Positions 1 to 24,021 of a stretch of 64,000 nt of DNA are shown one piece after another. The first letter of the stretch is position 1, and each line of letters opens with the position of its first letter. Source of the DNA: Schmidtea polychroa (Eukaryota); the NCBI GenBank assembly GCA_044892525.1, contig CM097885.1:211668001-211732000 (forward strand). Direction: 5' to 3'. Under the pieces are notes generated by a model. It did no database searches. It was not told the DNA's origin and saw only the letters and a list, made by a program, of their open reading frames with translations. The position numbers and the translations under genes were made by a program.

Positions 1-66
1 TATTGTTCCACCACCTCTATTACATGGAATATAAGAACTCATTTATTAATAATTTAAAATGAATCT

Positions 67-831
67 TCAAACCTGTTTCAAATGTAAATACATTGAAATC
101 TCTTCTCCATTAAAATCAATCAATTCTCCTTCTTGATTAAGAATTTTAAAATTAATATCCATTATATATTTTCTACATAAAGGTAAATAATTTGGAGGAT
201 TCATTCTTTCAACTATTTTATATCCCATAGGAACTGTGTTTGAGGGAAAGGAATATAAAACATTTGTTTGTTTACCATTATTATAAGAACCTGTTATACA
301 ATCGCAATGAATATTTATTGTGTTTGTATTTATTATTTTTATAATATGTTCTGATGTTATTATTTTATCTTCTTTTATTGTTATATCCATAGGTTTAAAT
401 CCTAAAACTGTGTGAAAGAAACAATTATCTAAAAAACTAATTTTTATATTCTTCAAAGTCATTACACATTTTGAAGTTGGTATATCCATTTTAATTTTAA
501 TACCTTCATTTGTTTTTTTAGAAAGTATATCATTTAAATCTTTTATCTCATATGCCCCAGGTTCTATTGTTATAATTTCTGGTTTATGCCCATCACGAGT
601 TTGAATAGTAAATTTATTATTATCTTTAGTTATATTAAAAATAGTATTATAAGCACAAAACCATAATAGCCCCAATTCATAATTTAAATTTTGATCTAAT
701 TTAATTGAATCTTGAAAGTTTATAGTAAAGTCTGATTCTTTTGAATTTATAGATAAAGTTCTTGAATATTTATCTGACATTATGTTTACCATTTTTTTTA
801 AATTATCTTCCGGAGGGTTGTGAAGCTCCAT
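67..831 (-). CDS. Minor capsid protein (penton-like, single jelly-roll) of element A
   Basis: 254 aa with Polinton minor-capsid motifs: F..SIKLD..YELGL..F..YNTI.NI..DNNKF, GAYEIKDLN, INIHCDCITGSY.NG....VLYSF, GYKIVE....P.YLPL, DINFKILNQ.G.LIDFNGE. Confidence 0.85.
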   Translation of the reverse strand: MELHNPPEDNLKKMVNIMSDKYSRTLSINSKESDFTINFQDSIKLDQNLNYELGLLWFCAYNTIFNITKDNNKFTIQTRDGHKPEIITIEPGAYEIKDLNDILSKKTNEGIKIKMDIPTSKCVMTLKNIKISFLDNCFFHTVLGFKPMDITIKEDKIITSEHIIKIINTNTINIHCDCITGSYNNGKQTNVLYSFPSNTVPMGYKIVERMNPPNYLPLCRKYIMDINFKILNQEGELIDFNGEEISMYLHLKQV

Positions 832-879
832 TTCTTTAGTAGTAAATTCATATAGTAAAAATCCTTATAGTAAAAATCC

Positions 880-1344
880 TTATAGTAGAGATTCTAGATC
901 ATTATAAATTTCTTGAATTATAGATTCAAAATCCTGCGTATGCCCCTTTCCCTCTCCCTTATTCAATCTATACAAAACATATAAACTTAAAATACCACAT
1001 ATTTTAGTATTCAAAGGTTGAACTTGTAAAGAGTTAAAAGTATAACCATTTGGGGAATCAATCGGAGAACCCCTCAAGAGATAATCTTCAACTTCTTTAG
1101 TAGGTTTAATCCCAAAAGAATCAAAGTAGATAGATTTCTTATATATACAAACCCAATGAGATCCTTTTTCATTTGAATTTTGATAATTGATTATTATATT
1201 CAGGGGACTCTCCAGACTTGATAATTCATCATTCATTAATATTTTAATTTTTAAATTTAAATAATTTGCATAATCTTTTAAATCAAAATTTGTTTTTGCA
1301 TTTATTCCAAATGTTTTTAAAAAATCTAATATTGAAGGAGTCAT
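880..1344 (-). CDS. Adenain-like cysteine protease (C5/Ulp1 fold), element A
   Basis: GSHWV (catalytic His), YFDSFG (Asp), QVQ...KICG (oxyanion Gln, catalytic Cys). Confidence 0.9.
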   Translation of the reverse strand: MTPSILDFLKTFGINAKTNFDLKDYANYLNLKIKILMNDELSSLESPLNIIINYQNSNEKGSHWVCIYKKSIYFDSFGIKPTKEVEDYLLRGSPIDSPNGYTFNSLQVQPLNTKICGILSLYVLYRLNKGEGKGHTQDFESIIQEIYNDLESLL

Positions 1345-1366
1345 TTTGTATTTTAAAACTTCGTAT

Positions 1367-2261
1367 TTATAACTTCGTATACTTATTAAATTTATCTTTT
1401 GAAATTATTCCTTGTTTTAACAAATCTTTAGAAATCTTTAAAATATCAGAATCTAAATTATTATGTCCTGCTTTCCTTGCAGCTAATAGTTTTCTTAATT
1501 CAATAAAAAGATTGATGGGATTTGGTTTACCACCTTCACTAATTAATCCCTCTCCCTCTGTAACAACATAACCCTTTTCATTTTTATTTAAATAATTCTT
1601 TAAATCTTGAATATATTTTGCTTTAGAACTAGCTCTTATTAATCTTATTAAATTTAAATATTTTTTAATTTCTTCAACATCATCTGAAGAATATCCACAA
1701 AGTAATCTATAAAAATCATCTGTAAATTCAAAGTCTAAATATTCATTATTATAAACATTTTGTGAATGAATACGTGATTTATTTTCTGAATTTGATTATA
1801 AAGTAAAGTTTTGTTTATTAATTGTTATTATTTGATATCCTTCAGTATTAGTATTAAATGTGGGTCTAATTGAAGGAGGTAAATCATCTCTAATTTTAGG
1901 ATCAACTTTAAGAGGTTTTGTTTTTAAAAACATTTCTTCTTCTTCCACATTAGAAATTCTTCTGCGTTTTCTTTGATTTCTTTCAGAATGACTTTCAGGA
2001 TGGTTTTCACTGGATTCTTTTTCTTTATCCTGCCACTCTAGTTCTTTATATTTTTTGTTTTTTATCTTCTAACTCTTTAAATTTTGCTTGCTCATTGAAA
2101 TCTTCCAACTCTTTTATAGCTTTAATTGTTGGCCCCTGTTGTTGTGTTATTACCTCATTTAATATTATAGATTCAGCATGTTGAGTTGTATCTTTTTTAT
2201 TATATTTATCTTGTTCTGATTGTAATTTTTTTAAAAGTGCTAATCTTTCTTCATATACCAT
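1367..2261 (-). pseudogene. Disrupted Polinton conserved hypothetical gene (coiled-coil N-terminus, C-terminal LRKLLAARKAGHN motif)
   Basis: ORF 2046-2261 continues after a frameshift near 2050 and one in-frame TAA near 1797 to a stop at 1367-1369. The C-terminus LFIELRKLLAARKAGHNN resembles the L..L.A.K.AG.N motif seen in Polinton accessory proteins. Confidence 0.6.
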
Positions 2262-2283
2262 TTTAATGGTATCAAAAATGGTA

Positions 2284-2862
2284 TCATAGTTCGAAGGGCT
2301 TCAAGTATAATCCTTTACCATTTTTAGTTTTACAAAGGCATCCATTCTTTAAAGATTTACATATTTTTTTTAAATCTTCTTTATCTTTTGAAGATAAAGA
2401 TTCAGATGTAGAAATTTGATTTTTTAAAAAATCATTTAAACCTCTACCTTTATAAGGATCAAGATAGAGACCTTTGCCCTGAGACTTTTGCCGACTCCCC
2501 TCATATGGATTAAGATAGAGACCCTTTCCAACGGACACTCCCCCTTTAGCTTGCCCTACCTTCTTCATTGAATCGATTTCAGTTTGTAGTTTTTCTTTTT
2601 CTAGGTCTGTCTTTTGAGATTCTTTAGCTTTTTGAACTGTAGTTGCAATTCCTCCAGCTATTCCAGCAGCACCTGATAAACCAGCAATGATTGCAGGTAT
2701 TAAAGCACCTAATGGAAGAATGCCACCTTCTTTAGCTTCGTGGAGCTTCGCTCTAACTTGTTCTTTTACATGTTTTCCAATAAAATATTTTTTACCATCA
2801 ATTACTACTGATTTATTTTTATTTGAATTTATTAATTCTTGCAAAGATTCTTCAGTTGTCAT
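2284..2862 (-). CDS. Putative virion core/membrane-active precursor with GG-ILPL hydrophobic segment and three GKGLYLxP repeats
   Basis: EGGILPLGALIPAIIAGLSGAAGIAGG followed by GKGLYLNPY, GKGLYLDPY and GKGLYLKPF. The Met at 2862 is the more plausible start. Confidence 0.6.
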   Translation of the reverse strand: MTTEESLQELINSNKNKSVVIDGKKYFIGKHVKEQVRAKLHEAKEGGILPLGALIPAIIAGLSGAAGIAGGIATTVQKAKESQKTDLEKEKLQTEIDSMKKVGQAKGGVSVGKGLYLNPYEGSRQKSQGKGLYLDPYKGRGLNDFLKNQISTSESLSSKDKEDLKKICKSLKNGCLCKTKNGKGLYLKPFEL

Positions 2863-2878
2863 TTTATAATAAATAAAA

Positions 2879-3670
2879 ATGGATACTTGGAAACCAATTT
2901 TAAATAGACATAAGAGTAAATTCAATAATAAAGTATTTCCTGATAATTTTAGATTATTAATTGTTGGTTCTTCTGGATGTGGAAAGAATGTACTTGTTTT
3001 GAGAATGTTACTTGAAGATGATTTTTTAGATTATAATAATTTAATCTTTTATTCTACAACCATAAATCAACCAGAATTACAACTTTTGAAATGTGGATTT
3101 GAAAATAAATTAACTAAAAAAGCAATAATTGATATTTTTAAAAATCAACATAGGTGTCCTGAAGAAGTTTTTCAACCTTGTGATATGGTTGATTGGTATA
3201 AGGAAAAGATTTTAGAATCAGATATTAGTAATAAAAATGATTATATTTGTGAAGAAGGGCAGGAGGCAATTCAAGTTTTATTCTCTAATAAACCTGAAGA
3301 TGTTTTACATTGTGATTTACTTCCTAAAGATAAAAAGAATCTAGTTATATTTGATGATGTTGTTAATATGAAAAATCAAGAGATTCAAAAGAGTTACTTT
3401 ACACGAGGTCGACATAATAATTGTAATGTTATTTATATATCTCAAACATATTATGCTTTAGATAAAAATTCAATAAGAAATAATTCCAATTGTTTTATAT
3501 TTTTTAAATTAGATCGCCGTGATAAGAATATGATTTATAATGATTTATTTTCAAATGTTGAACCTGATAAGAATATGTTTGATATGTTTGTTGATAATCA
3601 TTGGAAAGAAAAATATAATTATATTTATTTGGATAGAGAAGAAGCTGAAATATGGAAAAGTTTGTTTTAG
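2879..3670 (+). CDS. A32/FtsK-like genome-packaging ATPase, element A
   Basis: Walker A GSSGCGKN (GKT to GKN variant), Walker B LVIFDD, arginine motif TRGRH, ISQTY, IRNN. Confidence 0.92.
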   Translation: MDTWKPILNRHKSKFNNKVFPDNFRLLIVGSSGCGKNVLVLRMLLEDDFLDYNNLIFYSTTINQPELQLLKCGFENKLTKKAIIDIFKNQHRCPEEVFQPCDMVDWYKEKILESDISNKNDYICEEGQEAIQVLFSNKPEDVLHCDLLPKDKKNLVIFDDVVNMKNQEIQKSYFTRGRHNNCNVIYISQTYYALDKNSIRNNSNCFIFFKLDRRDKNMIYNDLFSNVEPDKNMFDMFVDNHWKEKYNYIYLDREEAEIWKSLF

Positions 3671-3681
3671 GGCTTGTCGAC

Positions 3682-5067
3682 TTAAACATCTGTTTTCTGT
3701 AGTTCATTATTATAAAATCCACCTAATATTTTTTCATTATTTAAATCAAAGATGCTATATGTTATTGGAGTTGTATAATTTATTTTATTTATAATAAAAA
3801 TTTCATTTGTCCATTTTGCTGTGAATCCTTTTTCAAATTTATTTTTATATTTAAATATTCTTACTCGGTCACCAATTTTAAACTTTGGTTTTTCAATAAC
3901 ATCATTTTCAATATTTACCACTTTAATGGTTTCAGGCTTCATGGAAGCATTTAAAGGTGTTAATTTTATAGAACTATGTACATCATTATTATATTCATTT
4001 ACAATCTTTTGTAACAATTCATTGTTCCATTTTTGTTTTCCAATAGCAGTAAAATATTTCCACATTTTATTTTTTAATGTTCTATTTAATCTTTCAACTA
4101 CGACTGTTTTTCCTTCGTTTTCTGTTGAATATAATTTAATATCATTTTCATTTAAAAACTTTGTAAAAACTTTGTTATAAAATTCTGTTCCTTTATCACA
4201 CCATAAATATTTTGGGATTCTTTGATTTTCTTCAAATATATTTTCAAATGCTTCTGTAATAGAATATCCTGTTTTATTTTCTAAACACCTTGCAAAAGCA
4301 AATCTTGTATATAAATCTATTACAGTTAAAATTATTTTATATTTTTCAGGGTCTGATGATTTGGGCATAAAGACTAAATCTGCAGACCATGTTTGATCTT
4401 TTTCATGTACTTGAACTTTTAAATATTTTTTATTTTTTCTAAATTCATGGTGTAATTCCTTTGCATATTTTATTTCTGATTCTGTTGGGGTTTGTAAACT
4501 AGTCTTGGATATATTCTCAAGGGATCTTTCAATGTCTGCTTGTTCGATAATCTTTTTATAAGCAACATCTTTTGCTATTCTAGGAAGTCTTGCACCCATG
4601 GTGATCGGACTGTGTCCTAAGCCTATGAAAATCTTACCTTTCATTGCTAATTTAACTAGAGCTCTTTGAATCTTTTCTTGGGTTGATGGATTTTGGATAC
4701 TATTTAAATCATGTATTAAATTCACATCTGCAACATGTCTATCTCTAAGATTTGTTGAATTGTATGCAATGTCATGTTTTAAAGCTGCTTGATCAATTCT
4801 ATTTATTGGTTCTTCTCCTTGTTTGGGATTATTATTTTCATCTAATCTAATATCTAATCTTGTTCCTGGTCCGGTGTAGTTGTGTTTAAATAAATGTCTT
4901 TCACCTGGATATTTTTCTGTAGTAAAAGGTTTTAATATTGAAGATGTTGTTTTTGAAGATTGTAGATCGCCTCCTGTATGTTTTTTAGTTTTTAAATGAC
5001 TTGCTTTATGATGTCTTGTAACTTGACAATTACAAGTTTCACATCTCCAATATTTATTTAGAGACAT
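3682..5067 (-). CDS. Zn-finger + parvovirus-type PLA2 domain + retroviral-type (rve) integrase fusion
   Basis: N-terminal CxxC...H..H finger; HNYTGPGT and DQAALKHDIAY PLA2 motifs; DDE core SADLV / WCDKGTEF / VVERLNRTLK; no C-terminal chromodomain. Confidence 0.9.
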   Translation of the reverse strand: MSLNKYWRCETCNCQVTRHHKASHLKTKKHTGGDLQSSKTTSSILKPFTTEKYPGERHLFKHNYTGPGTRLDIRLDENNNPKQGEEPINRIDQAALKHDIAYNSTNLRDRHVADVNLIHDLNSIQNPSTQEKIQRALVKLAMKGKIFIGLGHSPITMGARLPRIAKDVAYKKIIEQADIERSLENISKTSLQTPTESEIKYAKELHHEFRKNKKYLKVQVHEKDQTWSADLVFMPKSSDPEKYKIILTVIDLYTRFAFARCLENKTGYSITEAFENIFEENQRIPKYLWCDKGTEFYNKVFTKFLNENDIKLYSTENEGKTVVVERLNRTLKNKMWKYFTAIGKQKWNNELLQKIVNEYNNDVHSSIKLTPLNASMKPETIKVVNIENDVIEKPKFKIGDRVRIFKYKNKFEKGFTAKWTNEIFIINKINYTTPITYSIFDLNNEKILGGFYNNELQKTDV

Positions 5068-5096
5068 TTTAAAATGTTAAAATATCAGGGATTATA

Positions 5097-6372
5097 TTAA
5101 GAATCTCCCCTAACATTTTCGATTATTGAAATCTTTCCACCATATAATTTCATTTCTATTTTCTTTTCTTCTAATATTAATGTATATACTTTAGCTTTAA
5201 AATTAGAATCCTTTGTTACATGAAGTGTAACATCAACATTATTTATGGCTAATCGATCATCTTGGTCTGATACATTTATACAAAATATAGAATATAAATT
5301 TTTGAAATCTTCTAAACTTAATTGCGGTTCAACTTTGAAATCATAACATGTTTCAATATAATTTAGATATGGGAATATGTTTTCATTATTTTCAATATTA
5401 AATTCCATTCTATTTATTGGATAATAAGAACTATTTAATTGAATTTGTATTGTTTTTAAATTATCATCTCCAATCTTTTGAATAAATAGATTGTTATTTT
5501 TTTGGAAAGATGAATCTGTTTCTTTGAATCCAATCAAGATATATCTTGGTCGGTATGCTAAATTTGCTACCTTTATAGAATATGTTGAACCCTCTGTCAT
5601 ACTAAATTCACTACAGATTCTATTTAAATAATTTACATTTATAGACTTGTTGGAATTTAATCTTTCAAGGAGTTTAATCTCAGAATGTGGGTTTAATGTC
5701 CATTCAGGTATATGTAATTCAAGTGTTGATAATTTTAATTTAGCTTTTGTATCTACAGCTCCATAGAACAATCTTTTATCACCTTCTACTCTATTACAGA
5801 TGAATTCTATAAAAACATTATGAAGTATACGATTATAGTTTTGAAGGAATCCAAACAAGTGTTTTAATTCAAAATAACCTTCAAAGTTCAGCTCTTTTAT
5901 GGTAACCATGGTTTACATCTAAACCATCTTTATCTAAATCCCCTTTATTAACATCAGGAATCCAACCTGTTAATTCACCATATTCGTTTTTATAATCACA
6001 ACCAGTCAAAATAAAATTTAACATTGTAGAATATACTCCCGGATGCAAAACAGTTTCAATTTCTGATGATCCTAGTTTTAATCTCATGTTGGAGAATAAA
6101 TTTGGAAAGAAATTATTTTCTAGGGTTATATCTTTGTTTGCTTCAATTTCTAATTCTACTTTGTAATATAATTTGGCATTACAAATATCTATTGGGTTTG
6201 ATGTTTGAAGAGATTGAAAAACTATATCACCCCTACGATTTAAGTTTGCAATAGATCCTGAAGTTGGAGAGATTTTTAAAATATCATTTTTTTTAATTTC
6301 ATGAGTAAATTCTTTATTATAATCAAGATTTAATTTATTTTTTTCTTGAATTTTAAGATTTATGTTATTCAT
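5097..6372 (-). pseudogene. Major capsid protein (double jelly-roll) of element A, split by a frameshift near 5881-5909
   Basis: Two overlapping ORFs (163 aa and 270 aa) together give LENNFFPNLFS...HPG, ELKHLFGF..YNRIL, RPRYILIGF and YSIFCINVS.Q, typical of Polinton MCPs. Confidence 0.8.
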
Positions 6373-6428
6373 TTTTATATATTAAAATTTACACACACAA
6401 AATAGGATTAATTAAATATATTATGTAA

Positions 6429-6501
6429 GCCATTATAGCGGAGTGGGAATAGGCTTCAATTTTATCACCGGGAGTACCGGGTTCAATTTTCGATTTTGGT
6501 C
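6429..6501 (+). ncRNA. tRNA-like Pol III-type unit 1 (degenerate)
   Basis: 73 nt; A-box TAGCGGAGTGG, B-box-like GGTTCAATT, partial acceptor pairing GCCA/TGGT, T5 run at 6504-6508; anticodon stem does not pair. Confidence 0.5.
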
Positions 6502-6671
6502 AATTTTTATCGATATTTTATTTCAACGGAATCTGATTCAGCGTACTGATTTTAGTATATATTTAAATTTTCAGATGGATCTGAGTGGTAGTTGTCGAGA
6601 AAATGAATAATTAATTATTAATTTCATCAATAAATAGTCACACATTAACAACTTATTTTATATTGAGTATA

Positions 6672-6744
6672 GCTCTAATAGCTTAGTGGTAATAGCACTC
6701 GACTGCATTGCCAATACCAATGGGTTCAAATCCCATTTCGGTCA
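6672..6744 (+). ncRNA. tRNA-like Pol III-type unit 2 (GCA at anticodon position but anticodon stem unpaired)
   Basis: 73 nt; A-box TAGCTTAGTGG, D-stem GCT/AGC, perfect T-arm ATGGG-TTCAAAT-CCCAT, T8 terminator immediately after. Confidence 0.65.
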
Positions 6745-6908
6745 TTTTTTTTCAAATTTTTTTTAACGAAATATTGATCAGCATACTCGATTTAGTACTT
6801 GTACAAATTTTTAAGGAGATTGGTCAACGGCAACTCTTGGAAATTTAAGATCAAAAACGTTTTAACTACCAAAAATTAATATATCCAATAAAAAAAATAT
6901 TTATAAAA

Positions 6909-7205
6909 ATGGATGAGTTAAAAGAAAGAATGAGAAATGAATTGAATGAAGTTAAACATAAGAGAATGAAAAGAAGAGAAGAAGAACCATTAGAATACAT
7001 CAAAGAGTTGATGGTAGATAATGAAAAGTATCGACATTTTTATATGAAGGCTGTAGATGTTGCTGATATAAGATTGAAGAAAATGAAACAATTACAGGAA
7101 AGAGTTAAAGAACTTGAATCGATTATTTATAGTCTAAAAAATGACAAAAATTCAAACCTTGATGGCGCAGTGGGAATAGACTGGCACAGTGGTTCAAATG
7201 GATAG
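6909..7205 (+). CDS. Small coiled-coil hypothetical protein (98 aa), element A
   Basis: ATG-initiated, E/K/R/M-rich heptad-like ORF; no recognisable domain. Confidence 0.5.
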   Translation: MDELKERMRNELNEVKHKRMKRREEEPLEYIKELMVDNEKYRHFYMKAVDVADIRLKKMKQLQERVKELESIIYSLKNDKNSNLDGAVGIDWHSGSNG

Positions 7206-7228
7206 TGGTTCAAATCACATCTGAGGTT
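7156..7228 (+). ncRNA. tRNA-like Pol III-type unit 3 (overlaps 3' end of the 98-aa ORF)
   Basis: 73 nt; A-box TGGCGCAGTGG, B-box-like GGTTCAAATC, acceptor stem ACCTTG/TGAGGT (6 of 7 pairs incl. G-U), T8 at 7231-7238. Confidence 0.55.
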
Positions 7229-7430
7229 AGTTTTTTTTCAACATAAAATAATATTAAAAATTTGAAAATAATATTGAAAATAGTGTGGGTATCTTATATT
7301 TATAAAGTACTTGTATATTTTATTTTATTTATTTTATTTTATTTTATTTTTTTATTAATTAATTATTTTTTAAACATAAATATGAAAAAAAAAATATTGA
7401 AACGGGTGATGGTGGCGAACCGGTAATTAT

Positions 7431-7704
7431 CGCCACCTGTCTTTCGAACACCCCCGGATCGATTCCGGTAATGTGCACATATATTTCTCAGTTGTTTTCG
7501 GACCTCTTTCGGATTCGCTTTCGAATTCATTTGTACTTTCGAGCAGCACACTTAAAACGCCGATGAACGCCACCTGTCTTTCGAACACCCCCGGATCGAT
7601 TCCGGTAATGTGCACATTTATTTCTCAGTTGTTTTCGGACCTCTTTCGGATTCGCTTTCGAATTCATTTGTACTTTCGAGCAGCACACTTAAAACGCCGA
7701 TGAA
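7431..7704. repeat. Tandem duplication, 2 x 137 bp, relatively GC-rich
   Basis: Copies start at 7431 and 7568 (CGCCACCTGTC...) and differ at one base (CACATATATT vs CACATTTATT). Confidence 0.95.
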
Positions 7705-7850
7705 ATCGTATTCGAGCGAGAAGCGAATAATAAGGTGTGCTGCTATTATCGAATTGATTCTGATGTATGAGTCTGGCCAGCTTGTATATTGGAAGAGATT
7801 TGATAAACGAAAGAGGTTGAATAAAAAAAAAATGATCCGGATCAAAAAAA

Positions 7851-7910
7851 AACTGTTGAGAGGACAGTGAAAAAAAAAAAAAAAAAAACCACTGTCCTCT
7901 CAGAGCAGTT
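7851..7910. other. Hairpin: 13-bp perfect stem with 20-nt poly-A loop
   Basis: TGAGAGGACAGTG (7857-7869) / CACTGTCCTCTCA (7890-7902), extendable by AACTG/CAGTT. Confidence 0.85.
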
Positions 7911-8045
7911 TTACTATTTCATAAAATTTTTTATTTTTAAAACTTTCAAAACCTTAAGGTGATCAGGCGACCTAGATCATTATGAATTAGGTAATCTGAT
8001 ATTCTTATAACATTAAATCCTTATAACATTAAATCCTTAAGACCA

Positions 8046-8290
8046 AGTAGTGAGGAATCTATGCACCCCGTTACCTTTTCTCGGAATTACTAATCTATAA
8101 ATACATCTATTCCGAACTTTTTTACTTTTAAGGGAAGAAATTAAGGGTTAATGGCAATAGGGGACAAAGTTTAAAAGTTAAAAAAAGTGAAGAATATGGG
8201 GTAAAAAAGCATATAAATGTGGAAAATATGGGTCAATAGCGCTGTTTTTTTGAGGGTGGGGGTGCTGGGGTGCATAGATTCCTCAATACT
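8046..8290. repeat. 24-bp inverted repeat of a Maverick-type terminal sequence (245 bp span)
   Basis: AGTAGTGAGGAATCTATGCACCCC (8046-8069) vs GGGGTGCATAGATTCCTCAATACT (8267-8290), 23/24 match; no TSD around the pair. Confidence 0.85.
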
Positions 8291-10587: not shown

Positions 10588-10600
10588 GTCTAGGGCTACC

Positions 10601-12048
10601 AGTAGTGAGAAGTGAGGAGTATAAACCAAGCCAAATATAAAGTATTACGTAATATTTGTATGGGTACCCTAGGGGGTGGTATGGTGTTACACAATTTTGT
10701 AAAATTACATAATCACATATACAATGACGTGATTACATTTTTGGTTACGTAATAATCGGTTTTTAATTTACGTCATAATTGACCCCTCTTACGTAATAAT
10801 TGACCTTTAACCGCTACATCATATTTAACCTTTGACCCCTTACATAATAATTGACCTTTGACCTCTTATGTAATAATTATACTTCATTAGAGTAGTGAGG
10901 AGTATAAACCAAGCCAAATATCCCTGGAAAAAATTCAATACATTTTGATAGAGTAGTGAGAAGCGAGGAGTATAAACCAAGCCAAATATACAGTATTACG
11001 TAATATTTGTATGGGTACCCTAGGAGGGTGGTATGGTATTACATAATTTTGTAAAGTTACGTAATTATATATAAAGTGACGTAATAATTGTTTTTAATTT
11101 ACATCATAATTGATCCCCCTTATGTAATAATTGACCTTTGGCCTCTTACATCATATTTAACCTTTGACCCCTTACATAATAATTGACCTTTGACCTCTTA
11201 TATAATAATTATACTTCATTAGAGTAGTGAGGAGTATAAACCAAACCAAATATCCCTGGAAAAAATTTAATACATTTTGATAGAGTAGTGAGAAGCGAGG
11301 AGTATAAACCAAGCCAAATATACAGTATTACGTAATATTTGTATGGGTACCCTAGGGGGTGGTGTGGTATTACATAATTTTGTAAAGTTACGTAATTATA
11401 TATAAAATGACGTAATTATATTTTTGATTACGTAACAATTGTTTTTAATTTACATCATAATTGACCCCCTTATGTAATAATTGACCTTTGACCTCTTCCA
11501 TCATATTTAACCTTTGACCCCTTACATAATAATTTACCTTTGACCTCTTATGTAATAATTATACTTCATTAGAGTAGTGAGGAGTATAAACCAAGCCAAA
11601 TATCCCTGGAAAAAATTTAATACATTTTGATAGAGTAGTGAGAAGTGAGGAGTATAAACCAAGCCAAATATACAGTATTACGTAATATTTGTATGGGTAC
11701 CCTAGGGGGTGGTGGTATGGTGTTACATAATTCTGTATAATTTTATTATAGATATATATTTATTGAATTATAAACATATATAAGAAAAAGTCATACATAC
11801 ATTTTTGAACCCGAGTACTATAATGATGACAATGAATGTGATAAACACTCGGTNNNNNNNNNNNNNNNNNNNNNNNNNNNNNNNNNNNNNNNNNNNNNNN
11901 NNNNNNNNNNNNNNNNNNNNNNNNNNNNNNNNNNNNNNNNNNNNNNNNNNNNNNNNNNNNNNNNNNNNNNNNNNNNNNNNNNNNNNNNNNNNNNNNNNNT
12001 TGTTCACAACAATAAAAACTTTGACTATTTCACAATAACAACGTAAAA
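10601..12048 (+). repeat. Left TIR of element B, with three ~330-350 bp tandem units plus a partial unit (N gap 11854-11999)
   Basis: Units begin at 10601, 10952, 11284 and 11634; reverse-complement match to 24022-25104. Confidence 0.93.
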
Positions 12049-12092
12049 GGCAAATTATATTGATAAAAATTTTAAAAATTATATAAAACATT

Positions 12093-12284
12093 TTATTTCA
12101 AGTTAAATACATCTGTGTGGTATGCTTTACGCATTTCAGCTAATAAGATATGGACTGATTGATCTCTTTTAAAGTCGTGACAGCATGGACACCCATTGGG
12201 GCATGACAATCTCATAGAATCTTTGCAAACAATGCAATTTTCAATGCATCTAGTGTCAGACCTTAGAACCATATCGTAGTGCAA
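12093..12284 (-). CDS. Small Cys-rich hypothetical protein (possible Zn-binding); 5' end uncertain
   Basis: CIENCIVCKDSMRLSCPNGCPCCHDF; frame stays open ~110 nt further upstream without an ATG. Confidence 0.45.
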   Translation of the reverse strand: MHYDMVLRSDTRCIENCIVCKDSMRLSCPNGCPCCHDFKRDQSVHILLAEMRKAYHTDVFNLK

Positions 12285-12518
12285 CTCTAAAAGTTGTTCT
12301 ATATTAATACCTGTTAAACGAAATATTTTATTTATAAGTAACTCTGGTGCACAATAATCTATGGTATTATTCCTGGGTATAATTCTTGAAACTTCTTTAA
12401 AATTACTTCAAATAAGTAAACTAGATATAAAGATTATTAATTATAAATAAAAATATATTCTTTACCTTTTGACATTTTTTCTAACTACTAAAAACAAAAT
12501 CAATACAAACAAAATTAA

Positions 12519-12965
12519 TTAATTAATTAACATTTTAATTTCTGAGATAATGTTCTCTACATAGTGATTATAGTCTAAAGTTTTTATTCCAAGTAATACA
12601 ACCTTTCCGCTTGAAAATACATTAACACAAACTGGATTATACTTTTGAAGACGTAAGGCAGGAAATATTTCCGGTTCAAACATACATTTAGCTTTTTGTT
12701 GTAATTCGTATAAATTTATAAATTTACCGATATCAGCAGTTACTGTAATGGACTGAATTTGTAAATCTTGTATCTTATATTTCAAATCAACTAATTTAAG
12801 AGGTTGCTTGCATCCCATTATCCGACATCTACCCGACTTGAAAAATATAATTGGATACTTCCCACTTCTATCCACAACTTGTTGGGGTTTACCTAATGGG
12901 AATTTCATGTTTTTGACTAAACACTTACCTTTATAATTAATGTTGCTCAATAATAATGAAGTCAT
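12519..12965 (-). CDS. Compact TATA-binding-protein (TBP)-like protein encoded by the Maverick
   Basis: Two TBP-repeat signatures: SNIN...IIFFKSGRCRIMGCK and IQSITVTADIG..INLYEL......FEPEIFPAL.L....PV.VNVFSSGKVVLLGIK (compare TBP YEPELFPGL...LLIFVSGKVVLTGAK). Confidence 0.85.
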   Translation of the reverse strand: MTSLLLSNINYKGKCLVKNMKFPLGKPQQVVDRSGKYPIIFFKSGRCRIMGCKQPLKLVDLKYKIQDLQIQSITVTADIGKFINLYELQQKAKCMFEPEIFPALRLQKYNPVCVNVFSSGKVVLLGIKTLDYNHYVENIISEIKMLIN

Positions 12966-13039
12966 GTAATAAAATTTAAATAATTTTTATATACTTATAA
13001 TAATAAATTTAAACAAATATAAACAATAATATTAATGAA

Positions 13040-13678
13040 ATGAGATTAATTAAGATGGAATTAAGAAATGATGCCGTTTATCAAATTGTAGGTCCCAGTG
13101 GTAGTGGAAAAACTTTATTTGTTTGTAAATTATTACAATCGAATATGTTCAAATCAAAATTTAATAAAATATACTGGCATAAGGGAGCTGATGACGAGCA
13201 TGGTATGACACAAGATCAGTTTTGTAAATTAAAAATGAATATAATGAAGGGATTTGATAAAAATTGGTCATCTAGATTACATCAAGGTGATGCTATAATT
13301 ATTGATGATTTATATCAGGAAGCAAATAAAGAGAAAGATTTTAATAATTTATTTACAAAAACCAGTAGACATATCGGAGTAACGGTTATTTTTATAACAC
13401 AAAATTTATTTCATCAAGGCGGAAGTCATCGAACGCGTAATTTGAATGTACAATATTTAGTTATTTTCAAAAATCCTCGAGACGCAACTATAATTGATTT
13501 TCTCGCAAGACAGGCTTATCCTAATGATAGAAGATATTTAATTGAACCCTTCCAAGATGCAACAAAGATAGCACATGGGTATTTATTTTTCGATTTTACT
13601 CAACAATGTCCAGATGATTTACGTGTTAGAACAGATATTTTCAATGAAAAAGGTGTTACGATTTATAAACAAAAATGA
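13040..13678 (+). CDS. Packaging ATPase, element B
   Basis: GPSGSGKT, IIIDD, FTKTSRH, FITQNLF, YLVIFKNPRD, GYLFFDF.Q...DDLRVRTDIF (classic Maverick ATPase). Confidence 0.95.
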   Translation: MRLIKMELRNDAVYQIVGPSGSGKTLFVCKLLQSNMFKSKFNKIYWHKGADDEHGMTQDQFCKLKMNIMKGFDKNWSSRLHQGDAIIIDDLYQEANKEKDFNNLFTKTSRHIGVTVIFITQNLFHQGGSHRTRNLNVQYLVIFKNPRDATIIDFLARQAYPNDRRYLIEPFQDATKIAHGYLFFDFTQQCPDDLRVRTDIFNEKGVTIYKQK

Positions 13679-13700
13679 AATACATTATTATTATTTAAAA

Positions 13701-13838
13701 ATGTCATTTAAAAAAGTTATAGTTCAACGTGAAAAAGTTACAAAGCAGAAAGAAAACAAAAGAAATACTAAACGGAAAGAAAAAACTATAAATAAGACTA
13801 AAAAATCAATGAAAAAGAAGAGTTGGATTAAATTATAA
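13701..13838 (+). CDS. Very small lysine-rich ORF (45 aa), possible DNA-condensing peptide
   Basis: MSFKKVIVQREKVTKQKENKRNTKRKEKTINKTKKSMKKKSWIKL; a similarly basic ORF precedes the related fragment at ~36060. Confidence 0.35.
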   Translation: MSFKKVIVQREKVTKQKENKRNTKRKEKTINKTKKSMKKKSWIKL

Positions 13839-13869
13839 ACAAATTAATTAATAAAATACATCATTAACA

Positions 13870-14196
13870 ATGAAATTACAACGTAGCTTACCATATTTTA
13901 ACGCCTTGCTAAAGGCTCCAAATAATAAAAGGATGAGTATATTACAAGCTTTTCCATCATTTGTTATTGATGATTTACTCGAAGCTATTGTTAACATAGT
14001 TCGTGGTAATGTAAATATTAGTAAAGCTAAAAGGTTTGTATTAAAAAGACATAAGAAATCTCTTTTATCATTAGTTAACACAAAAAATCGAAATCTAATG
14101 AGAAAAATAATGTATAAACAACAAGGCGGATTTTTAGGTACATTAATTCCAATTGTATTATCGGCTATAAGCACAATTTCGTCATTAAATTCTTAA
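13870..14196 (+). CDS. Conserved small Maverick protein with C-terminal QxGG-FL hydrophobic tail (PW-like)
   Basis: L.E.IVNIVRGNV.IS....LKRHK..L..L and QQGGFLGTLIPIVL; degraded homolog at 36290-36600. Confidence 0.75.
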   Translation: MKLQRSLPYFNALLKAPNNKRMSILQAFPSFVIDDLLEAIVNIVRGNVNISKAKRFVLKRHKKSLLSLVNTKNRNLMRKIMYKQQGGFLGTLIPIVLSAISTISSLNS

Positions 14197-14280
14197 AATA
14201 TAATATCATAATGGGTGCTAAGAATTCATTACCGGATAAACATAATTTAGATTTAAATATATTAACATCATGTTGTAATA

Positions 14281-15403
14281 ATGAAGGAAACATTTTCCAA
14301 AAAGGTCAAATCAAAGAAGAAAATATTAGAGAAAAAACTCAAAACGATTTGGACAAACCCGAAAGATCCAGATGGTTTTGGTGGTGTAGAAAATCTTGCA
14401 AAAAGAGTAAATAAATCAAAGAAAGAAACTCAAAAATGGTTATCTAATCAATTAGCCTACAGTCTAAATAAACCAATATTAAAAAGATTCCCCACGAGAT
14501 CTTATAAAACATTTGGTGTTAATGATTTATGGCAAATGGATTTAATGGAAATGATTCCATTTTCAAAAACTAATAAAGGATACAAATATATTTTGACATG
14601 TATTGATGTATTTAGTAGATACGCTCGTGCTATCCCAACAAAATCTAAATCAGCTAATGACATGGCTGATGCATTAAAAACATTATTTGCTGACGGACAG
14701 CCTCGTAATTTACAAACAGATTTGGGTAAAATTATAAATTAAATAATTTTAATTAATTTTAAATTTAGGTAAAGAATTTTATAATAGCAAAGTTAAAGAA
14801 ATTATCAAAGGAATAAATCATTACTCAGTATTTTCACAATATAAAGCAGCGCACGTGGAAAGATTCAATCGTACTTTAAGAGATCGTTTGAAAAAATATT
14901 TTGTATATCAAGGCAATAAAACGTGGATAAATGTATTGTTGAAAATAATTTATAGTTACAATTTTTCACCTCATAGAGGAATAAATGGAATGAGACCAAT
15001 CGATATTTATTCAACAAATAATATTGATACTTGGATATCACAACAAGATAAATCAAAAACAAAAAAGCCGAAATATAAAGTAGGAGACCATGTTAGAATA
15101 AGTAAAATCAGTGCTTCTCCATTCATCAAGAATTTTGATAACAATTGGAGTGATTAAGTTTTTAAAATATCGAAAATAGATACTAATCAAAATCCGGTCA
15201 TGTACTTTATTACAGATAATGAAAACGATCAAGTCAGTGGCAAATTCTACGAACCAGAACTACAAGTCATTCCATCACCCACAATCTTCAGAATTCAAGA
15301 GATTTTAAAAACTAAATCGGACGGGAAATATAAACAATACTATGTGAAATGGCATGGTTATAAACATCCTAGCTGGATATCTGAAAACCAATTGATTAAA
15401 TAA
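14281..15403 (+). pseudogene. Chromodomain-bearing rve integrase of element B, with a 43-nt intron (14726-14768) and one nonsense codon (TAA 15155-15157)
   Basis: WQMDLM, LTCIDVFSRY, QTDL|G|KEFYN restored by splicing, VERFNRTLR, NWSD*VF (conserved E replaced by stop, same frame continues), YYVKWHGY...SWI chromodomain. Confidence 0.9.
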
Positions 15404-15408
15404 ATATT

Positions 15409-16431
15409 ATGAAGGAAAACCAGTTTTATATGATTTTACCTAGTAATAGTTGTCCTCTTATTTATCCTGATAATAATGCTAGTAATTTTAAAGTTGAATT
15501 TCAAAACCCAATTTATTTGAATGGGAAGTGGGAAGTAGCTTTGATTGATTTTACATTTGTGTATAATCATTTTCCGTATTACAGTAATTCATGGGTACAA
15601 TACGAATTTAAAAAATCATGCGAAGAAACTAAATACTTGAAAATTGATAATCAAAACAAAATCTTAGAAATTTTAAATTCTACATATAATCCAGATGTTG
15701 ATGTGTTCTTGGAAAGATATGAAAACTTAGTGATAGTTTGTCCACATGTTCCATTTAAAATATCATTTCTTGACACCAAACATGCATCTAAGTTTGAATT
15801 AAAAACCATATCAATCATTAGCAAAACTGACCATTGTTGAATTAAACTACCTAAATTTACTGAAAATAATATCATTGAACAAATTGGGATAACTATAAAT
15901 TATGATATCAAGACAAAATTCGAACATTATTTTGAAGATGAATTATTCTTAACTACTTTATCAGAGTTGCGAGGGTATTTAATGACAATTAATCCATCTC
16001 CATTTAAAGAAATACATCTTCAAAATCAAGAATTAGTAAAAATAACACTTGTAGATGATATTTCAAATATTACCTTTGATCAAAAATTAACAAAAGCTTT
16101 AGGATTAAAGAATCAAACTTATAATGAAAAAGACTTTGTTGGTGTGAAAATTCCAAAAATATTTAAAATTCATCAACAAATGTTTATTTATTCTAATATC
16201 ATTGAACCAATAAATGTTGGTGATGTAAGAGTTCCTCTATTAAAATCGATATGGATTAAAAGATATGAACAGGGAGAGGTTGTACAGTTAGAAATAAAGA
16301 ACCCAACGTACCTTCCAATTTCATCTTCATCTATAAACAACATTGAAATTAATATTCGCAACGATAGTGGAAATTTAGTTAAATTTTCAAAAGACACCAA
16401 AACACATTTAACACTACATTTTCGTAAAAAA
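15409..16431 (+). pseudogene. Minor capsid protein (PX/penton-like) with in-frame TGA at 15838-15840
   Basis: FYMILPSNS....YPDN.ASNF......PIYL.G.WEVAL and MFIYSNIIEP..VGD..VPLL, P.YLP......I.I.IRND.G..V.F, LTLHFR; both halves are in the same frame. Confidence 0.85.
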
Positions 16432-16833
16432 ATGAATAATCCTGATATTGTAAACTTTTATAGTAATAGTCAATCTGGTGGAGATTTACCATATTTTGTT
16501 GGTAAACAATATGGAACAGGTTGGTTAAAAACAATAGGTCGATTTGCTTTACCAATTCTTAGACGCATGGGTAATTTTGGTATGAAAACTGCACATGATG
16601 TAATAAATAACAATTCAAAAATTCTACCTGCTTTAAAATCAAATGTTTTATCTGAAATTAAACATTCACTACCTGATGTAATTCAACATTTGCCTACTGT
16701 AATTAATAAAGTATTTGATGTTTTTAATAAACAAGAGAATGAACAAAAAGGTGGAATGATTAAACGCAGAAAAACATTAAAGAAGCATATAAACAAAAGA
16801 ATGAAAGGCTTTGGAACTATATTCGAAAAATGA
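16432..16833 (+). CDS. PZ-like core protein precursor (in frame with the penton ORF)
   Basis: MNNPDIVNFY..SQSGGDLPYFVGKQYGTGWLK..GRFALPILR, basic C-terminus; QxGG motifs. Confidence 0.7.
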   Translation: MNNPDIVNFYSNSQSGGDLPYFVGKQYGTGWLKTIGRFALPILRRMGNFGMKTAHDVINNNSKILPALKSNVLSEIKHSLPDVIQHLPTVINKVFDVFNKQENEQKGGMIKRRKTLKKHINKRMKGFGTIFEK

Positions 16834-18056
16834 TTAGTGCAAAATCTGAATTATGTATTTTTGATAGACCATCACCTCAAGCAGTAATTGAACATGGTTC
16901 ATTTGAAGATATTTATCCAACGAATTCAATTACGGATACTGGTACCTCTTCAATTCAATTTTACATTAACGGATCTCAAACCGAATATTTAGATTTGAAT
17001 GATACTTTACTTTATCTTCAGTTGAAAGTTGTAAATAATGTAGGTGAAAATATTTCTGATGATTCTGTTGTAACTGCAAACAATTTCTTTTTCCAAACTC
17101 TTTTTAAAGAAGCTGAATTAATTTTTAATTCTATTAAAGTTGAAGGAGGAAATGATACATTTGCTCATAAAGCATTAATCGAAACCATATTAAATTACAA
17201 TCATGATACAAAACGTACATGTTTAGAAGGTATGGGGTACAGTGAAGATGATAATATAAGAAAAGCGTGGATTGCAAAATCTAAACCATTTTCATTATGT
17301 TCACCAATACAATTTGATTTTATGGATCAACCAAAATATTTATTACCTGGTGTTAGTGTCCAAATTAAATTGACGAGATCAAGTCCATCACATAGTTTAA
17401 CATGTACAAAAGTAGAACCTAAAATTGAATTATTAGATGCAAAATTAATGGTAAGAAGAGTTCGAGTTGAACCATCCGTTTTAGCTGGTCATCAAATTGG
17501 ACTTGCTTCAAGAAATGCAATTTATCCTTTGAGAAGCAAGGAAGTTGTCGAATTTTCGTTACCTACTGGATCTTCTTCTTTTTATAAAGAACAAATCTTT
17601 GGTGATCGGCGATTACCAAATTTTATCCTTGTAACATTTCAAAGAAATAAAAGAAATAATGGATCACTAACACATTCTTATTCAATGTACGACCACAATA
17701 ATGTAAAATCAATAACTTTATTGAAAGGAAGCGACTATCGTGAAAAATATAGTCAAGATTTTGAAAATGATAATTATAGTACAAGTTATATGCAGTCAAT
17801 AATTAGAAACATGGGTTACCTTAATAAGAATATTAATTGTGGAATTAGTATGTCTGACTTTAAAGAAAAGTATCCATTCTTTACATTTGTATTGGCTCCA
17901 GACTTTGATCTTAATCAAAGTCAATTGCCACAGCAAGGAAATTTAAGACTTGATATTAAATTTGGAACACCTCTAACAGAATCAATTTCTGTAATAGTCT
18001 ATGGCGTCTTTGAAAAAGAGATTCAAATTACATCCAATCGTACAGTACTAGTGTAA
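16830..18056 (+). CDS. Major capsid protein (PY, double jelly-roll), intact ORF
   Basis: KSEL.IF..P..Q..IE.G.F..IYP, EYLDLNDTLLYL.LKV, QPKYLLPGVSV.IKL.RS, RLPNFILVTF, FFTFVLAPD, GNLRLDIKFG.PL. Confidence 0.95.
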   Translation: MISAKSELCIFDRPSPQAVIEHGSFEDIYPTNSITDTGTSSIQFYINGSQTEYLDLNDTLLYLQLKVVNNVGENISDDSVVTANNFFFQTLFKEAELIFNSIKVEGGNDTFAHKALIETILNYNHDTKRTCLEGMGYSEDDNIRKAWIAKSKPFSLCSPIQFDFMDQPKYLLPGVSVQIKLTRSSPSHSLTCTKVEPKIELLDAKLMVRRVRVEPSVLAGHQIGLASRNAIYPLRSKEVVEFSLPTGSSSFYKEQIFGDRRLPNFILVTFQRNKRNNGSLTHSYSMYDHNNVKSITLLKGSDYREKYSQDFENDNYSTSYMQSIIRNMGYLNKNINCGISMSDFKEKYPFFTFVLAPDFDLNQSQLPQQGNLRLDIKFGTPLTESISVIVYGVFEKEIQITSNRTVLV

Positions 18057-18153
18057 ATAAAATTTGAAAATGATTGGCTTGAACTATAAACCAAATTAGG
18101 AAACAATAATTATTAAAGATGAAGTAAGAATTTCATTTTTATTACTTTAATTT

Positions 18154-18504
18154 ATTGATAATAGTTCTATTCACATTGAATACATAGGTCGAAGATTGTT
18201 CGGAGCTGAATTTCTTGGAGTTTTTCCATTAGATAAAATACCATATATTGATGTAAACAAGGCTTTAATTGTAAATACTCAATCTTGTAATCTCAAGGAA
18301 GAGCATTGGCTCGCAGTTTATGTGAAACCGGAAAAAATATATGCATTTGATCCCATGGGGTTTTATTATCCTCCTCTATTAATATCAAAACTTCAATCAT
18401 TGTTAATGCCAATTGAATATAATAAAATTCGCTATCAAAGTCCATTGACAAAAACATGTGGGCAACATTGTTTAGCGTGGTTGAAGTCAATGAAAGATCT
18501 TTGA
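18154..18504 (+). CDS. Adenain-like protease of element B; start codon probably mutated (ATT at 18154 in place of ATG)
   Basis: FLGVFP.D, IVNT....EHWLA, FDPMG, YQ....TCGQHC; no ATG in the open frame upstream of 18196. Confidence 0.85.
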   Translation: MDNSSIHIEYIGRRLFGAEFLGVFPLDKIPYIDVNKALIVNTQSCNLKEEHWLAVYVKPEKIYAFDPMGFYYPPLLISKLQSLLMPIEYNKIRYQSPLTKTCGQHCLAWLKSMKDL

Positions 18505-18669
18505 ATATAAGAAAATTTAATCAAATAAATATTATCTTGTTAGTTTGTAATTTTTTATGTCATTCTACTAGTAAATATAATTTAATGGTATGTGATTATG
18601 TGATTGGTTTCTTGAATTTTATTGGTTACTATTTTATTGAATCATTGTTGTGTAATATGTAGTATATAA

Positions 18670-18937
18670 ATGAAAACAATTCATTTAAAAGTCACTTTTA
18701 TCAATACCCAAACTTTTGTAAGTTTTATGTAATTAATTAATTAATAATTCTCTTATAATGTTTTCTAGGTAATGAATTGCAACAACAACAACAATTACAA
18801 CAACTCAAATAACATGAATAACGTCAATAGCAAGATTTGCAACCACTCAAATAACATGAACAACAAAAACTTAAACACCAACAATGATAAAATGGTTCGA
18901 AATAATTCCAAGAAAATTAATGCAAACATGATAAAAT
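18670..18937 (+). CDS. Two candidate exons (18670-18717, 18769-18937) encoding an Asn-rich leader, separated by a 51-nt intron
   Basis: ATG at 18670; GTAAGT...TTTTCTAG intron 18718-18768 joins in frame to the N-rich ORF; second GTAAGT donor at 18938. Confidence 0.5.
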
Positions 18938-23956: not shown

Positions 23957-24021
23957 ATTTTGTATTGAAATAAAATTTTATTTAATATAATTATTGTTTT
24001 AGTTCTTATTTGTATCATTTA

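What the first reader, a model, noticed from the sequence alone, without database searches (positions are those of the whole stretch)
6429..7238. Cluster of three tRNA-sized Pol III-like units inside Polinton A (VA-RNA-like small RNAs?)
Seen: three 73-nt units (6429-6501, 6672-6744, 7156-7228) on the + strand. Each has an A-box at tRNA positions 8-19 with a shared AGTGG(G/T)AATAG, a GGTTCAA B-box at the T-loop position, partial end-to-end pairing and an oligo-T run just downstream. None has a paired anticodon stem. Units 1 and 2 also share ~60 nt of downstream similarity (TTCAACGGAATCTGATTCAGCGTACTGATTT vs TTTAACGAAATATTGATCAGCATACTCGATTT), suggesting an old duplicated cassette. Established: adenoviruses make Pol III VA RNAs and some herpesviruses and retroviruses use tRNA-like Pol III promoters for small RNAs. 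Inference: promoter boxes and terminators are kept while decoding function is lost, which fits Polinton-encoded non-coding RNAs rather than tRNAs.
Basis: partly seen in the sequence, partly recalled or inferred. Interest (0 to 1): 0.8.

Follow-up and report, generated by a model that had tools for sequence, protein, structure and literature searches.

The report
tRNA-derived RNA genes inside a Polinton

Summary
The three units are real and are fixed parts of a young Polinton family with roughly 2,700 copies, not a scattered SINE. They keep an A box, a B box 32-33 nt later and a T-run 22-24 nt after the B-box start, while the rest drifts. Among 74 distinct unit-3 segments, 0 of 9 B-box and 2 of 11 A-box positions vary, against 17 of 21 end positions. 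Unit 2's 5' half matches host tRNA-Cys (28 of 33). Units 1 and 3 fold no better than shuffles, their end pairing does not covary, and the number of units differs between subfamilies. A fourth unit lies outside the reported span (A box at 7413). It heads a region of about 370 nt (z -7.9) whose 61-nt hairpin (7746-7806) folds only on the promoter's strand; shared changes keep its pairs in 11 of 12 cases, singleton changes in 1 of 7. Best reading: a Pol III non-coding RNA array, with unit 4 the VA/TMER-like RNA and units 1-3 short, expendable transcription cassettes. Expression, RNA ends and function are untested. My literature searches found no such report for Polintons; two earlier notes of this scan describe the same feature.

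The parts
1..8290 (.). Right part of Polinton A (about 15.3 kb; the left end lies about 7 kb before the window, at L031:2956)
   Evidence: 342-bp terminal inverted repeat L031:2956-3296 vs window 7949-8290, 98%; protein-primed PolB PF03175; A32 ATPase, rve integrase with PLA2-like domain, DJR capsid
5097..6372 (-). Major capsid (double jelly-roll) gene, in two ORFs in this copy; its start lies 57 nt from unit 1, pointing the other way
   Evidence: ORFs 5097-5909 and 5881-6372; PF21738
6429..6508 (+). Unit 1: A box 6436-6446, B box 6480-6488, T5 6504-6508; no fold above shuffles
   Evidence: z 0.27; T5 in 29 of 30 near-identical copies
6672..6752 (+). Unit 2: A box 6679-6689, B box 6723-6731, T8; 5' half like host tRNA-Cys(GCA), anticodon stem broken
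   Evidence: Rfam tRNA 32.4 bits; 28 of 33 identity of a natural variant to host tRNA-Cys; z -2.5
6909..7205 (+). 98-codon ORF of no known family, overlapping the 5' half of unit 3; absent upstream of unit 3 in many subfamilies
   Evidence: (no Pfam hit)
7156..7238 (+). Unit 3: A box 7163-7173, B box 7207-7215 (second B-like copy at 7191), T8 7231-7238; boxes conserved, remainder variable
7404..7476 (+). Unit 4 head (new): A box 7413-7423, B box 7456-7464 with GATCG instead of GTTCA; no T-run of 5 or more behind it until 7927
   Evidence: (2,787 genome matches, 0 in the reversed control)
7426..7699 (+). 137-nt tandem duplication inside the unit-4 region, seen in this copy and in none of 29 other loci
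7746..7806 (+). 61-nt pre-miRNA-sized hairpin: 25 pairs, 8 of them G-U; folds on the + strand only
   Evidence: z -5.4 on +, z +1.3 on -; 99.2% of cells paired in 39 copies
7853..7932 (+). Terminal hairpin with an A-rich loop, followed by T4 (7909-7912) and T6 (7927-7932): predicted end of the unit-4 RNA
   Evidence: (98.2% paired; one pair with a two-sided change in 3 copies)
7949..8290 (.). Right terminal inverted repeat

Best explanation
Polinton A carries a terminal array of tRNA-like promoter units that host RNA polymerase III likely transcribes: units 1-3 would give short (about 75-80 nt) unstructured RNAs, and unit 4 would give a folded RNA of about 370 nt whose hairpin likely serves as a substrate or decoy for the host's Dicer/RNAi machinery. 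SHOWN: membership in the element; A box, B box, spacing and T-run kept while the inner sequence drifts (unit 3, and across all four paralogues); likeness of unit 2 to host tRNA-Cys; gain and loss of cassettes of about 235-245 nt; a strand-specific hairpin whose shared changes keep its pairs. INFERRED: TFIIIC/TFIIIB binding and transcription; read-through of a T4 at 7495; processing of the hairpin; benefit to the element through blunting small-RNA silencing or through a miRNA of its own. For units 1-3 the selected property appears to be being transcribed by Pol III (promoter plus terminator), not RNA shape.
For: Element membership: (20 of 20 sites in Polinton context). The unit-4 pattern count (2,787) is close to the capsid candidate count (2,676), so there is no SINE-like excess. 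Promoter selection without a motif filter (74 distinct segments from 60 of 71 loci): B box 0 of 9 positions variable; A box 2 of 11, both at degenerate positions of the recalled TRGCNNAGTGG consensus; 5' end 7 of 7; 3' end 10 of 14. (51 loci): substitutions per site 0.006 in the unit-3 B box, 0.247 at its ends, 0.090 at capsid third codon positions. The stretch between the boxes has the same length (32 nt as measured) in units 1-4 though mostly unalignable. B-box start to T5 is 22-24 nt in 14 of 14 unit-2 and 42 of 46 unit-3 variants (motif-selected). tRNA origin: a profile of units 1-3 hits host tRNA-Cys at E 1.4e-6, Lys at 0.013, and not Arg or iMet. Unit-4 region: MFE z -7.9, 0 of 100 shuffles as good. 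Hairpin z -5.4 on + and +1.3 on -. Changes shared by 2 or more copies keep pairing in 11 of 12 cases, singletons in 1 of 7 (Fisher p 0.002). Whole structure: 16 cells with two-sided change against 1.0 in shuffles. Precedent: VA RNAs use boxes A and B and a T-run and act as Dicer decoys (PMC7589676, passages); TMERs join a tRNA-like head to miRNA hairpins (PMC8223928, passages).
Against: Transcription, strand and RNA ends are not shown. A T4 at 7495-7498 is conserved in most copies and is as long as the T4 after the terminal hairpin; four T's can end VA RNA, so unit 4 might stop at about 90 nt. The hairpin has no two-sided change (0 of 25 pairs), and in this G-U-rich stem 66% of transitions keep a pair anyway, so 11 of 12 gives only p 0.049 against that null. 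Of the 16 two-sided cells, 12 come from one pair, and copies are related, so counts are not independent events. Units 1 and 2 had too few diverged copies for the box test (unit 2: 3 of 20 vs 15 of 39, p 0.08; unit 1: uninformative). In 20 capsid-selected loci, units 1+2 lay beside the capsid gene in 3, unit 3 in 13, unit 4 in 14, and no unit in 5. No unit or unit-4 homologue was found in 20 metagenome loci with related capsids, though those contigs mostly lack the element ends. Polinton B in the same window has no such unit. The hairpin matches no Rfam family and has no antisense match longer than 11 nt in either element.
Confidence: 0.55

Rival explanations
1. The boxes matter at the DNA level: TFIIIC/Pol III occupancy keeps the element's end and the divergent capsid promoter open or shields them from heterochromatin (a tDNA barrier, recalled from yeast and mammals), and the short RNAs are by-products.
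For: Units 1-3 keep boxes and terminator but no structure. Their number varies from one to four cassettes. The first unit always lies close to the capsid start, and in 7 of 20 sampled loci the unit-3/unit-4 block lies beside the polymerase end instead. Polintons are piRNA-silenced in a planarian (PMC8532177, passages); the host of G000 is not named by any search, so this applies only conditionally.
Against: It does not explain the strand-specific, pair-keeping hairpin behind unit 4. A terminator at tRNA distance is kept, which a pure TFIIIC site would not need (inference). It is compatible with the best explanation for units 1-3.
Confidence: 0.22
2. The hairpin belongs to a Pol II transcript (3' region of the 98-codon ORF or a pri-miRNA), and unit 4 makes only a 90-nt RNA ending at the first T4.
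For: Conserved T4 at 7495. An AATAAA-like A-rich tract follows the hairpin (sequence). A related metagenome Polinton has a strong hairpin (z -9.5) with no A/B boxes nearby.
Against: Many copies have no ORF upstream of units 3-4. The predicted fold closes the hairpin inside a domain that starts about 95 nt after the unit-4 start (closing helix 99.4% paired). No T5 occurs between 7404 and 7926, though this alone is weak.
Confidence: 0.13
3. Neutral relics: tRNA pseudogenes or SINE heads that were captured once and are carried passively.
For: Units 1 and 2 are dispensable. A diverged unit-2 cassette (82-83%) also occurs outside the element in a 1,245-bp tandem array.
Against: Boxes are conserved while adjacent positions vary. 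Spacing is kept over unalignable inner sequence. No solitary, dispersed copy among 20 sampled sites or elsewhere in the 64-kb window.
Confidence: 0.08
4. Functional decoding tRNAs that help viral translation, as proposed for tRNAs in Polinton-like viruses.
For: Unit 2 keeps CU-GCA at positions 32-36 and passes the Rfam tRNA cut-off. tRNAs are reported in PLVs (PMC12220804, passages).
Against: ARAGORN finds none. Anticodon and acceptor stems are broken. End pairing does not covary. The host has large arrays of intact tRNA-Cys.
Confidence: 0.02

Closest known systems
Adenovirus VA RNA I/II
   Same: Internal A and B boxes, T-run end, proposed tRNA origin, strongly paired RNA that is a Dicer substrate and decoy (PMC7589676, passages); carried by a related lineage of protein-primed DNA viruses (recalled).
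   Different: No Rfam VA match. The unit-4 RNA would be about 370 nt, against about 160 nt recalled for VA RNA. Units 1-3 are unstructured. The array sits next to the terminal repeat and varies in cassette number. No expression shown.
Murine gammaherpesvirus 68 TMERs (tRNA-miRNA-encoded RNAs)
   Same: A cluster of several tRNA-like Pol III units with miRNA-type hairpins behind a tRNA-like head (PMC8223928, passages).
   Different: Units 1-3 have no hairpin behind them and no conserved acceptor/T-arm fold. In unit 4 the hairpin lies about 200 nt from the start (copies without the duplication), not directly behind a cloverleaf.
Bovine leukaemia virus Pol III miRNA cluster
   Same: Type 2 promoters driving pre-miRNA hairpins in an integrating virus (PMC12498455, abstract only).
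   Different: In BLV the A boxes lie inside the hairpins and the B boxes downstream of the terminator; here both boxes lie in a tRNA-spaced head upstream of the hairpin.
tRNA-derived SINEs
   Same: tRNA-like head with A and B boxes, an unrelated body and an A-rich 3' part (unit 4) (definition recalled).
   Different: Copies track the Polinton at about one to one and 20 of 20 sampled sites are inside element DNA.
tRNA genes in Polinton-like viruses and virophages
   Same: tRNA-related genes inside polintovirus-type genomes (PMC12220804, passages).
   Different: Those are ARAGORN/Rfam-positive and read as decoding tRNAs; these units have lost the cloverleaf.

Membership tests
Polinton/Maverick (host element) | Protein-primed PolB, retroviral-type integrase, packaging ATPase, DJR capsid | tested here: met
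   PF03175; rve, Pox_A32, DJR-like
Polinton/Maverick (host element) | Terminal inverted repeats | tested here: met
   342 bp, 98%
Pol III type 2 gene | A box and B box at tRNA spacing | tested here: met
   the unit-4 B box has the GATCG form that host tRNA-iMet also has
Pol III type 2 gene | Oligo-T terminator | tested here: met
   Units 1-3: T5, T8, T8. Unit 4: T4 at 7495, T4 at 7909, T6 at 7927, so its end is ambiguous
Pol III type 2 gene | Pol III occupancy and a defined transcript | not testable with these tools
   Only assembled contigs were available; they cannot show ends or strand
tRNA | Cloverleaf with paired acceptor and anticodon stems | tested here: not met
   ARAGORN 0; Rfam alignment of unit 2; folds; no covariation
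Adenovirus VA RNA | Sequence/structure match to the VA family | tested here: not met
   No VA hit among Rfam matches up to E 10 in the window's first 30 kb or in 5 loci
Adenovirus VA RNA | Abundant RNA that inhibits Dicer or dsRNA sensors | not testable with these tools
   needs biochemistry
TMER-type tRNA-miRNA | tRNA-like head directly followed by a pre-miRNA hairpin | tested here: not met
   No hairpin behind units 1-3; about 200 nt between the unit-4 start and the hairpin
pre-miRNA | About 60-nt hairpin, conserved pairing, one arm more conserved | tested here: met
   61 nt, z -5.4; shared variation at 5 of 28 positions in the 5' arm and 2 of 27 in the 3' arm
pre-miRNA | Precise 21-24-nt mature and star reads | not testable with these tools
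   no raw small-RNA reads offered
tRNA-derived SINE | Dispersed solitary copies independent of a carrier element | tested here: not met
   vs 25; 0 of 20 sampled sites; the only outside copies seen are in a tandem satellite

The most novel reading that the evidence does not exclude
An animal Polinton encodes its own Pol III RNA arsenal, built by capturing host tRNA, duplicating it as an expandable cassette array and fusing one copy to a Dicer-substrate hairpin. That would be a functional counterpart, and possibly a model for the origin, of adenovirus VA RNA in the group thought to be ancestral to adenoviruses, used to blunt the host's small-RNA silencing and so helping explain a burst to thousands of near-identical copies.
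Probability: 0.35. Interest if true: 0.85.

Novelty: new variant of a known kind. Interest (0 to 1): 0.64.

Why it matters
Polintons are usually described by their proteins. In my searches no listed paper reports Pol III non-coding RNAs in an animal Polinton, and no paper held all of 'Maverick', 'Polinton' and 'VA RNA'. If these units are transcribed, Polintons share with adenoviruses, gammaherpesviruses and some retroviruses the use of tRNA-type promoters for their own RNAs. That would give a testable handle on how an endogenous DNA virus copes with RNAi/piRNA defence and on how VA-type RNAs arise from tRNA. With thousands of templates per genome, the RNAs could also be abundant enough to affect the host.

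Tried and rejected
Expression: no RNA holder listed. Logan contigs were laid twice. Contigs of runs only guessed to be RNA (X1 and X2 of one study; X3 and X5, one sample of a second study) cover parts of the unit-4 body, for example L003 2510-2616, 2569-2822 and 2620-2812, and some cover unit 3, the 98-codon ORF and the capsid gene. Cover on units 1-2 and the terminal repeat was thin or absent, while run X7 covered 29 of 30 bins. Contigs show no ends, strand or level, they did not stop at one place, and short RNAs are lost in such data, so I draw nothing for or against. Small shares in runs labelled organisms B and C (X4, X6) were laid once; X6 held diverged pieces, X4 one shallow contig; not used as evidence. 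IMG/VR: the box pattern gave 68 loci, all of which read as chance matches in unrelated sequence; capsid queries found no relative. Metagenome relatives: 20 loci, no units by regex or profile; low-threshold ARAGORN output there was noise. mir-754 was not found in G000, and the control rang nowhere. A recalled likeness of unit 3 to tRNA-Trp could not be tested because the pattern found no host gene; against four host tRNAs, units 1, 3 and 4 have no clear single parent. The ideas that unit 4 is 7SL or another known RNA got no Rfam support. One search selects units by motif and is partly circular; one search repeats it without a motif filter. One unit-3 row with a triplicated B box was dropped. 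In one search one locus stood for the C3 tandem array. One search kept only alignments of 300 nt or more (40 segments, 39 distinct); the fragment L133:5157-5464 was left out of alignment A2. Supplements of PMC3854530 were not available and one small-RNA paper was not held; published miRNA lists that I could not see may contain the hairpin.

Full report
Observation. The three units are present as described, on the + strand, between the start of the capsid gene (6372, minus strand) and the right terminal repeat. A pattern for an A box followed by a B box finds exactly these three places in 64 kb and 0.07 on average in 100 shuffles (pattern written after seeing the units). ARAGORN finds no tRNA. 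Rfam accepts only unit 2, at 32.4 bits, with a broken anticodon stem. Units 1 and 3 fold no better than shuffles (z 0.27 and 0.08); unit 2 folds modestly (z -2.5). The downstream likeness of units 1 and 2 is real (z 7.9).

Context. The window is G000:C1:211668001-211732000, in a 781-Mb AT-rich genome that no call names. The carrier is a Polinton of about 15.3 kb with 342-bp terminal inverted repeats, a protein-primed PolB, an A32 ATPase, an integrase and a double-jelly-roll capsid. The family is large and young. The 861-nt query gave 2,001 candidates, and all 40 scored were near-identical over the full length; the capsid N-terminus gave 2,676 candidates. All 29 other loci fetched end at the same terminal repeat. 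A pattern for units 1-3 matches 4,287 places and its reversed control none.

SINE test. A pattern for the fourth unit (below) matches 2,787 places, close to the capsid count. I fetched 20 further sites from the first 100 listed, favouring those without an obvious neighbouring unit; all 20 lie in Polinton DNA. A profile of the units finds nothing else in the window. The only copies outside elements that I saw are in a 1,245-bp satellite. The SINE reading is not supported.

Selection on the promoter. Diverged subfamilies (capsid DNA 83-96% identical) allow a test for unit 3. Without any motif filter, 74 distinct segments from 60 of 71 loci show another letter in three or more rows at 0 of 9 B-box positions, 2 of 11 A-box positions (both degenerate in the recalled consensus), 7 of 7 positions at the 5' end and 10 of 14 at the 3' end; the core of the T-run is invariant. 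Against one reference copy, substitution rates are 0.006 in the B box and 0.247 at the ends, with 0.090 at capsid third codon positions (51 loci). The stretch between the boxes has the same length in all four paralogues although most pairs are unalignable there. The 5' and 3' ends of 25 distinct unit-3 end pairs pair no better with their own partner than with a shuffled one (p 0.39). So the boxes and terminator are kept and the tRNA shape is not. Units 1 and 2 had too few diverged copies for a firm test. Copies are related, so these counts are not independent events.

Origin and turnover. The 5' half of a natural unit-2 variant matches host tRNA-Cys(GCA) at 28 of 33 columns. A profile of units 1-3 hits host tRNA-Cys at E 1.4e-6, Lys weakly, and Arg and iMet not at all; only these four isotypes were compared. 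Cassettes of about 235-245 nt are gained and lost: unit 3 plus 4 alone, 3-3-4, 1-2-2-2, and 1-2-3-4 all occur. In 20 capsid-selected loci, units 1+2 were beside the capsid gene in 3, unit 3 in 13, unit 4 in 14, and none in 5.

The missed fourth unit. At 7413 and 7456 there is a further A/B pair with the same spacing and a GATCG B box. It is not followed by a T5 until 7927. In a copy without this window's private 137-nt duplication, the 378-nt region folds at z -7.9. It holds a 61-nt hairpin (7746-7806) with 25 pairs, 8 of them G-U, which folds on the + strand (z -5.4) and not on the - strand (z +1.3): the mark of an RNA read in the promoter's direction rather than a DNA palindrome (inference). 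Across 39 distinct copies, 99.2% of its cells are paired. Changes shared by two or more copies keep the pair in 11 of 12 cases and singletons in 1 of 7 (Fisher p 0.002); against a transitions-only null the first figure gives p 0.049. The hairpin has no two-sided change; the whole structure has three pairs with one (16 cells vs 1.0 in shuffles, 12 of them at a single pair). A terminal hairpin with an A-rich loop and T4/T6 follows. A conserved T4 at 7495 is the main difficulty for a single long transcript.

Expression. Not established. What was tried is told under Tried and rejected.

Distribution. Twenty metagenome loci with related capsids (31-100% identity to the query P0018) show no units by regex or profile, but most do not reach an element end and gene order differs. 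One carries a strong mir-754-like hairpin without A/B boxes. Polinton B in this window has none. Two earlier AI notes of this scan describe Pol III-type hairpin genes in Polintons of other genomes, and two describe this same feature in other copies in this genome. I saw these only after forming my reading; they are leads, not support.

Mechanism. Most likely, host TFIIIC binds the boxes and Pol III makes three short U-tailed RNAs and one longer folded RNA. The selected property of units 1-3 appears to be transcription itself, either for the RNA ends or for chromatin at the element's end. Unit 4 has a selected RNA structure, and its hairpin would be a Dicer substrate or decoy. All of this paragraph is inference; I put 0.55 on the whole and about 0.8 on the units being under selection as Pol III promoters.

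Comparison and novelty. It works like VA RNA and the TMERs (passages of PMC7589676 and PMC8223928) and like the BLV Pol III miRNA cluster (abstract of PMC12498455), but fails membership tests for VA RNA, TMER, tRNA and SINE. For Polinton-like viruses, library scans have reported tRNAs and a few miRNA matches, read as decoding tRNAs (passages of PMC12220804). A phylogenomic study of vertebrate Mavericks has no occurrence of tRNA, non-coding or polymerase III in its main text (term search of PMC8097293). Searches (listings and abstract openings only) showed no report of Pol III non-coding RNAs in an animal Polinton; the library lacks most subscription journals and Repbase. Verdict: a real feature under selection, a new variant of viral Pol III RNA genes, with expression and function still to be shown.

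Noticed in passing
window 12519-12965 (-): Polinton B (about 10595-25100) encodes a 148-aa TBP-like protein (PF00352, E 1.1e-14) and has no A/B-box units. Earlier notes of this scan report the same gene in other copies.
   Followed up: partly
L158:5436-5515 (-): A metagenome Polinton with a capsid about 50% identical carries a strong hairpin (z -9.5) matching Rfam mir-754 at 48.6 bits (E 6e-7; gathering score 84), followed by T-runs and without A/B boxes. It may mean that this miRNA family is linked to Polintons.
   Followed up: partly
G000:C3:25.48-25.58 Mb (L188-L207): A tandem array with a period of about 970 bp, each repeat holding the capsid 5' end, a shortened unit 3 and the complete unit-4 region.
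   Followed up: partly
G000:C1:145-169 kb (L131, L132) and L251: A 1,245-bp satellite carrying a diverged (82-83%) unit-2 cassette with intact boxes and T-run; whether it is donor or derivative of the Polinton cassette is unknown.
   Followed up: partly
L235, L238, L242, L246, L248, L252, L253: The unit-3/unit-4 block (85-98% identical to the window) also sits at the polymerase end of elements whose PolB region is only about 70% identical, and unit-4 matches often come in inverted pairs 13-16 kb apart: the block seems to be exchanged between subfamilies and is part of longer terminal repeats there.
   Followed up: partly
L033, L060, L230, L255: Host tRNA genes (Lys, Arg, Cys, iMet) lie in long single-isotype tandem arrays with periods of 278-454 bp, similar in scale to the Polinton cassettes.
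   Followed up: no
window 3682-5067 (-): The integrase carries an N-terminal parvovirus-type phospholipase A2-like domain (PF08398, E 4e-9).
   Followed up: no
L031:3360-3803: The ORF before PolB has a C2H2 zinc finger whose best Pfam match is the dsRNA-binding jaz type (PF12171, E 9.5e-7); a partner for the structured RNA is pure speculation.
   Followed up: no
L136:4237-4317: Another tRNA-like A/B-box sequence, unrelated to the units (profile E 0.83), next to a Polinton end; possibly a host SINE.
   Followed up: no
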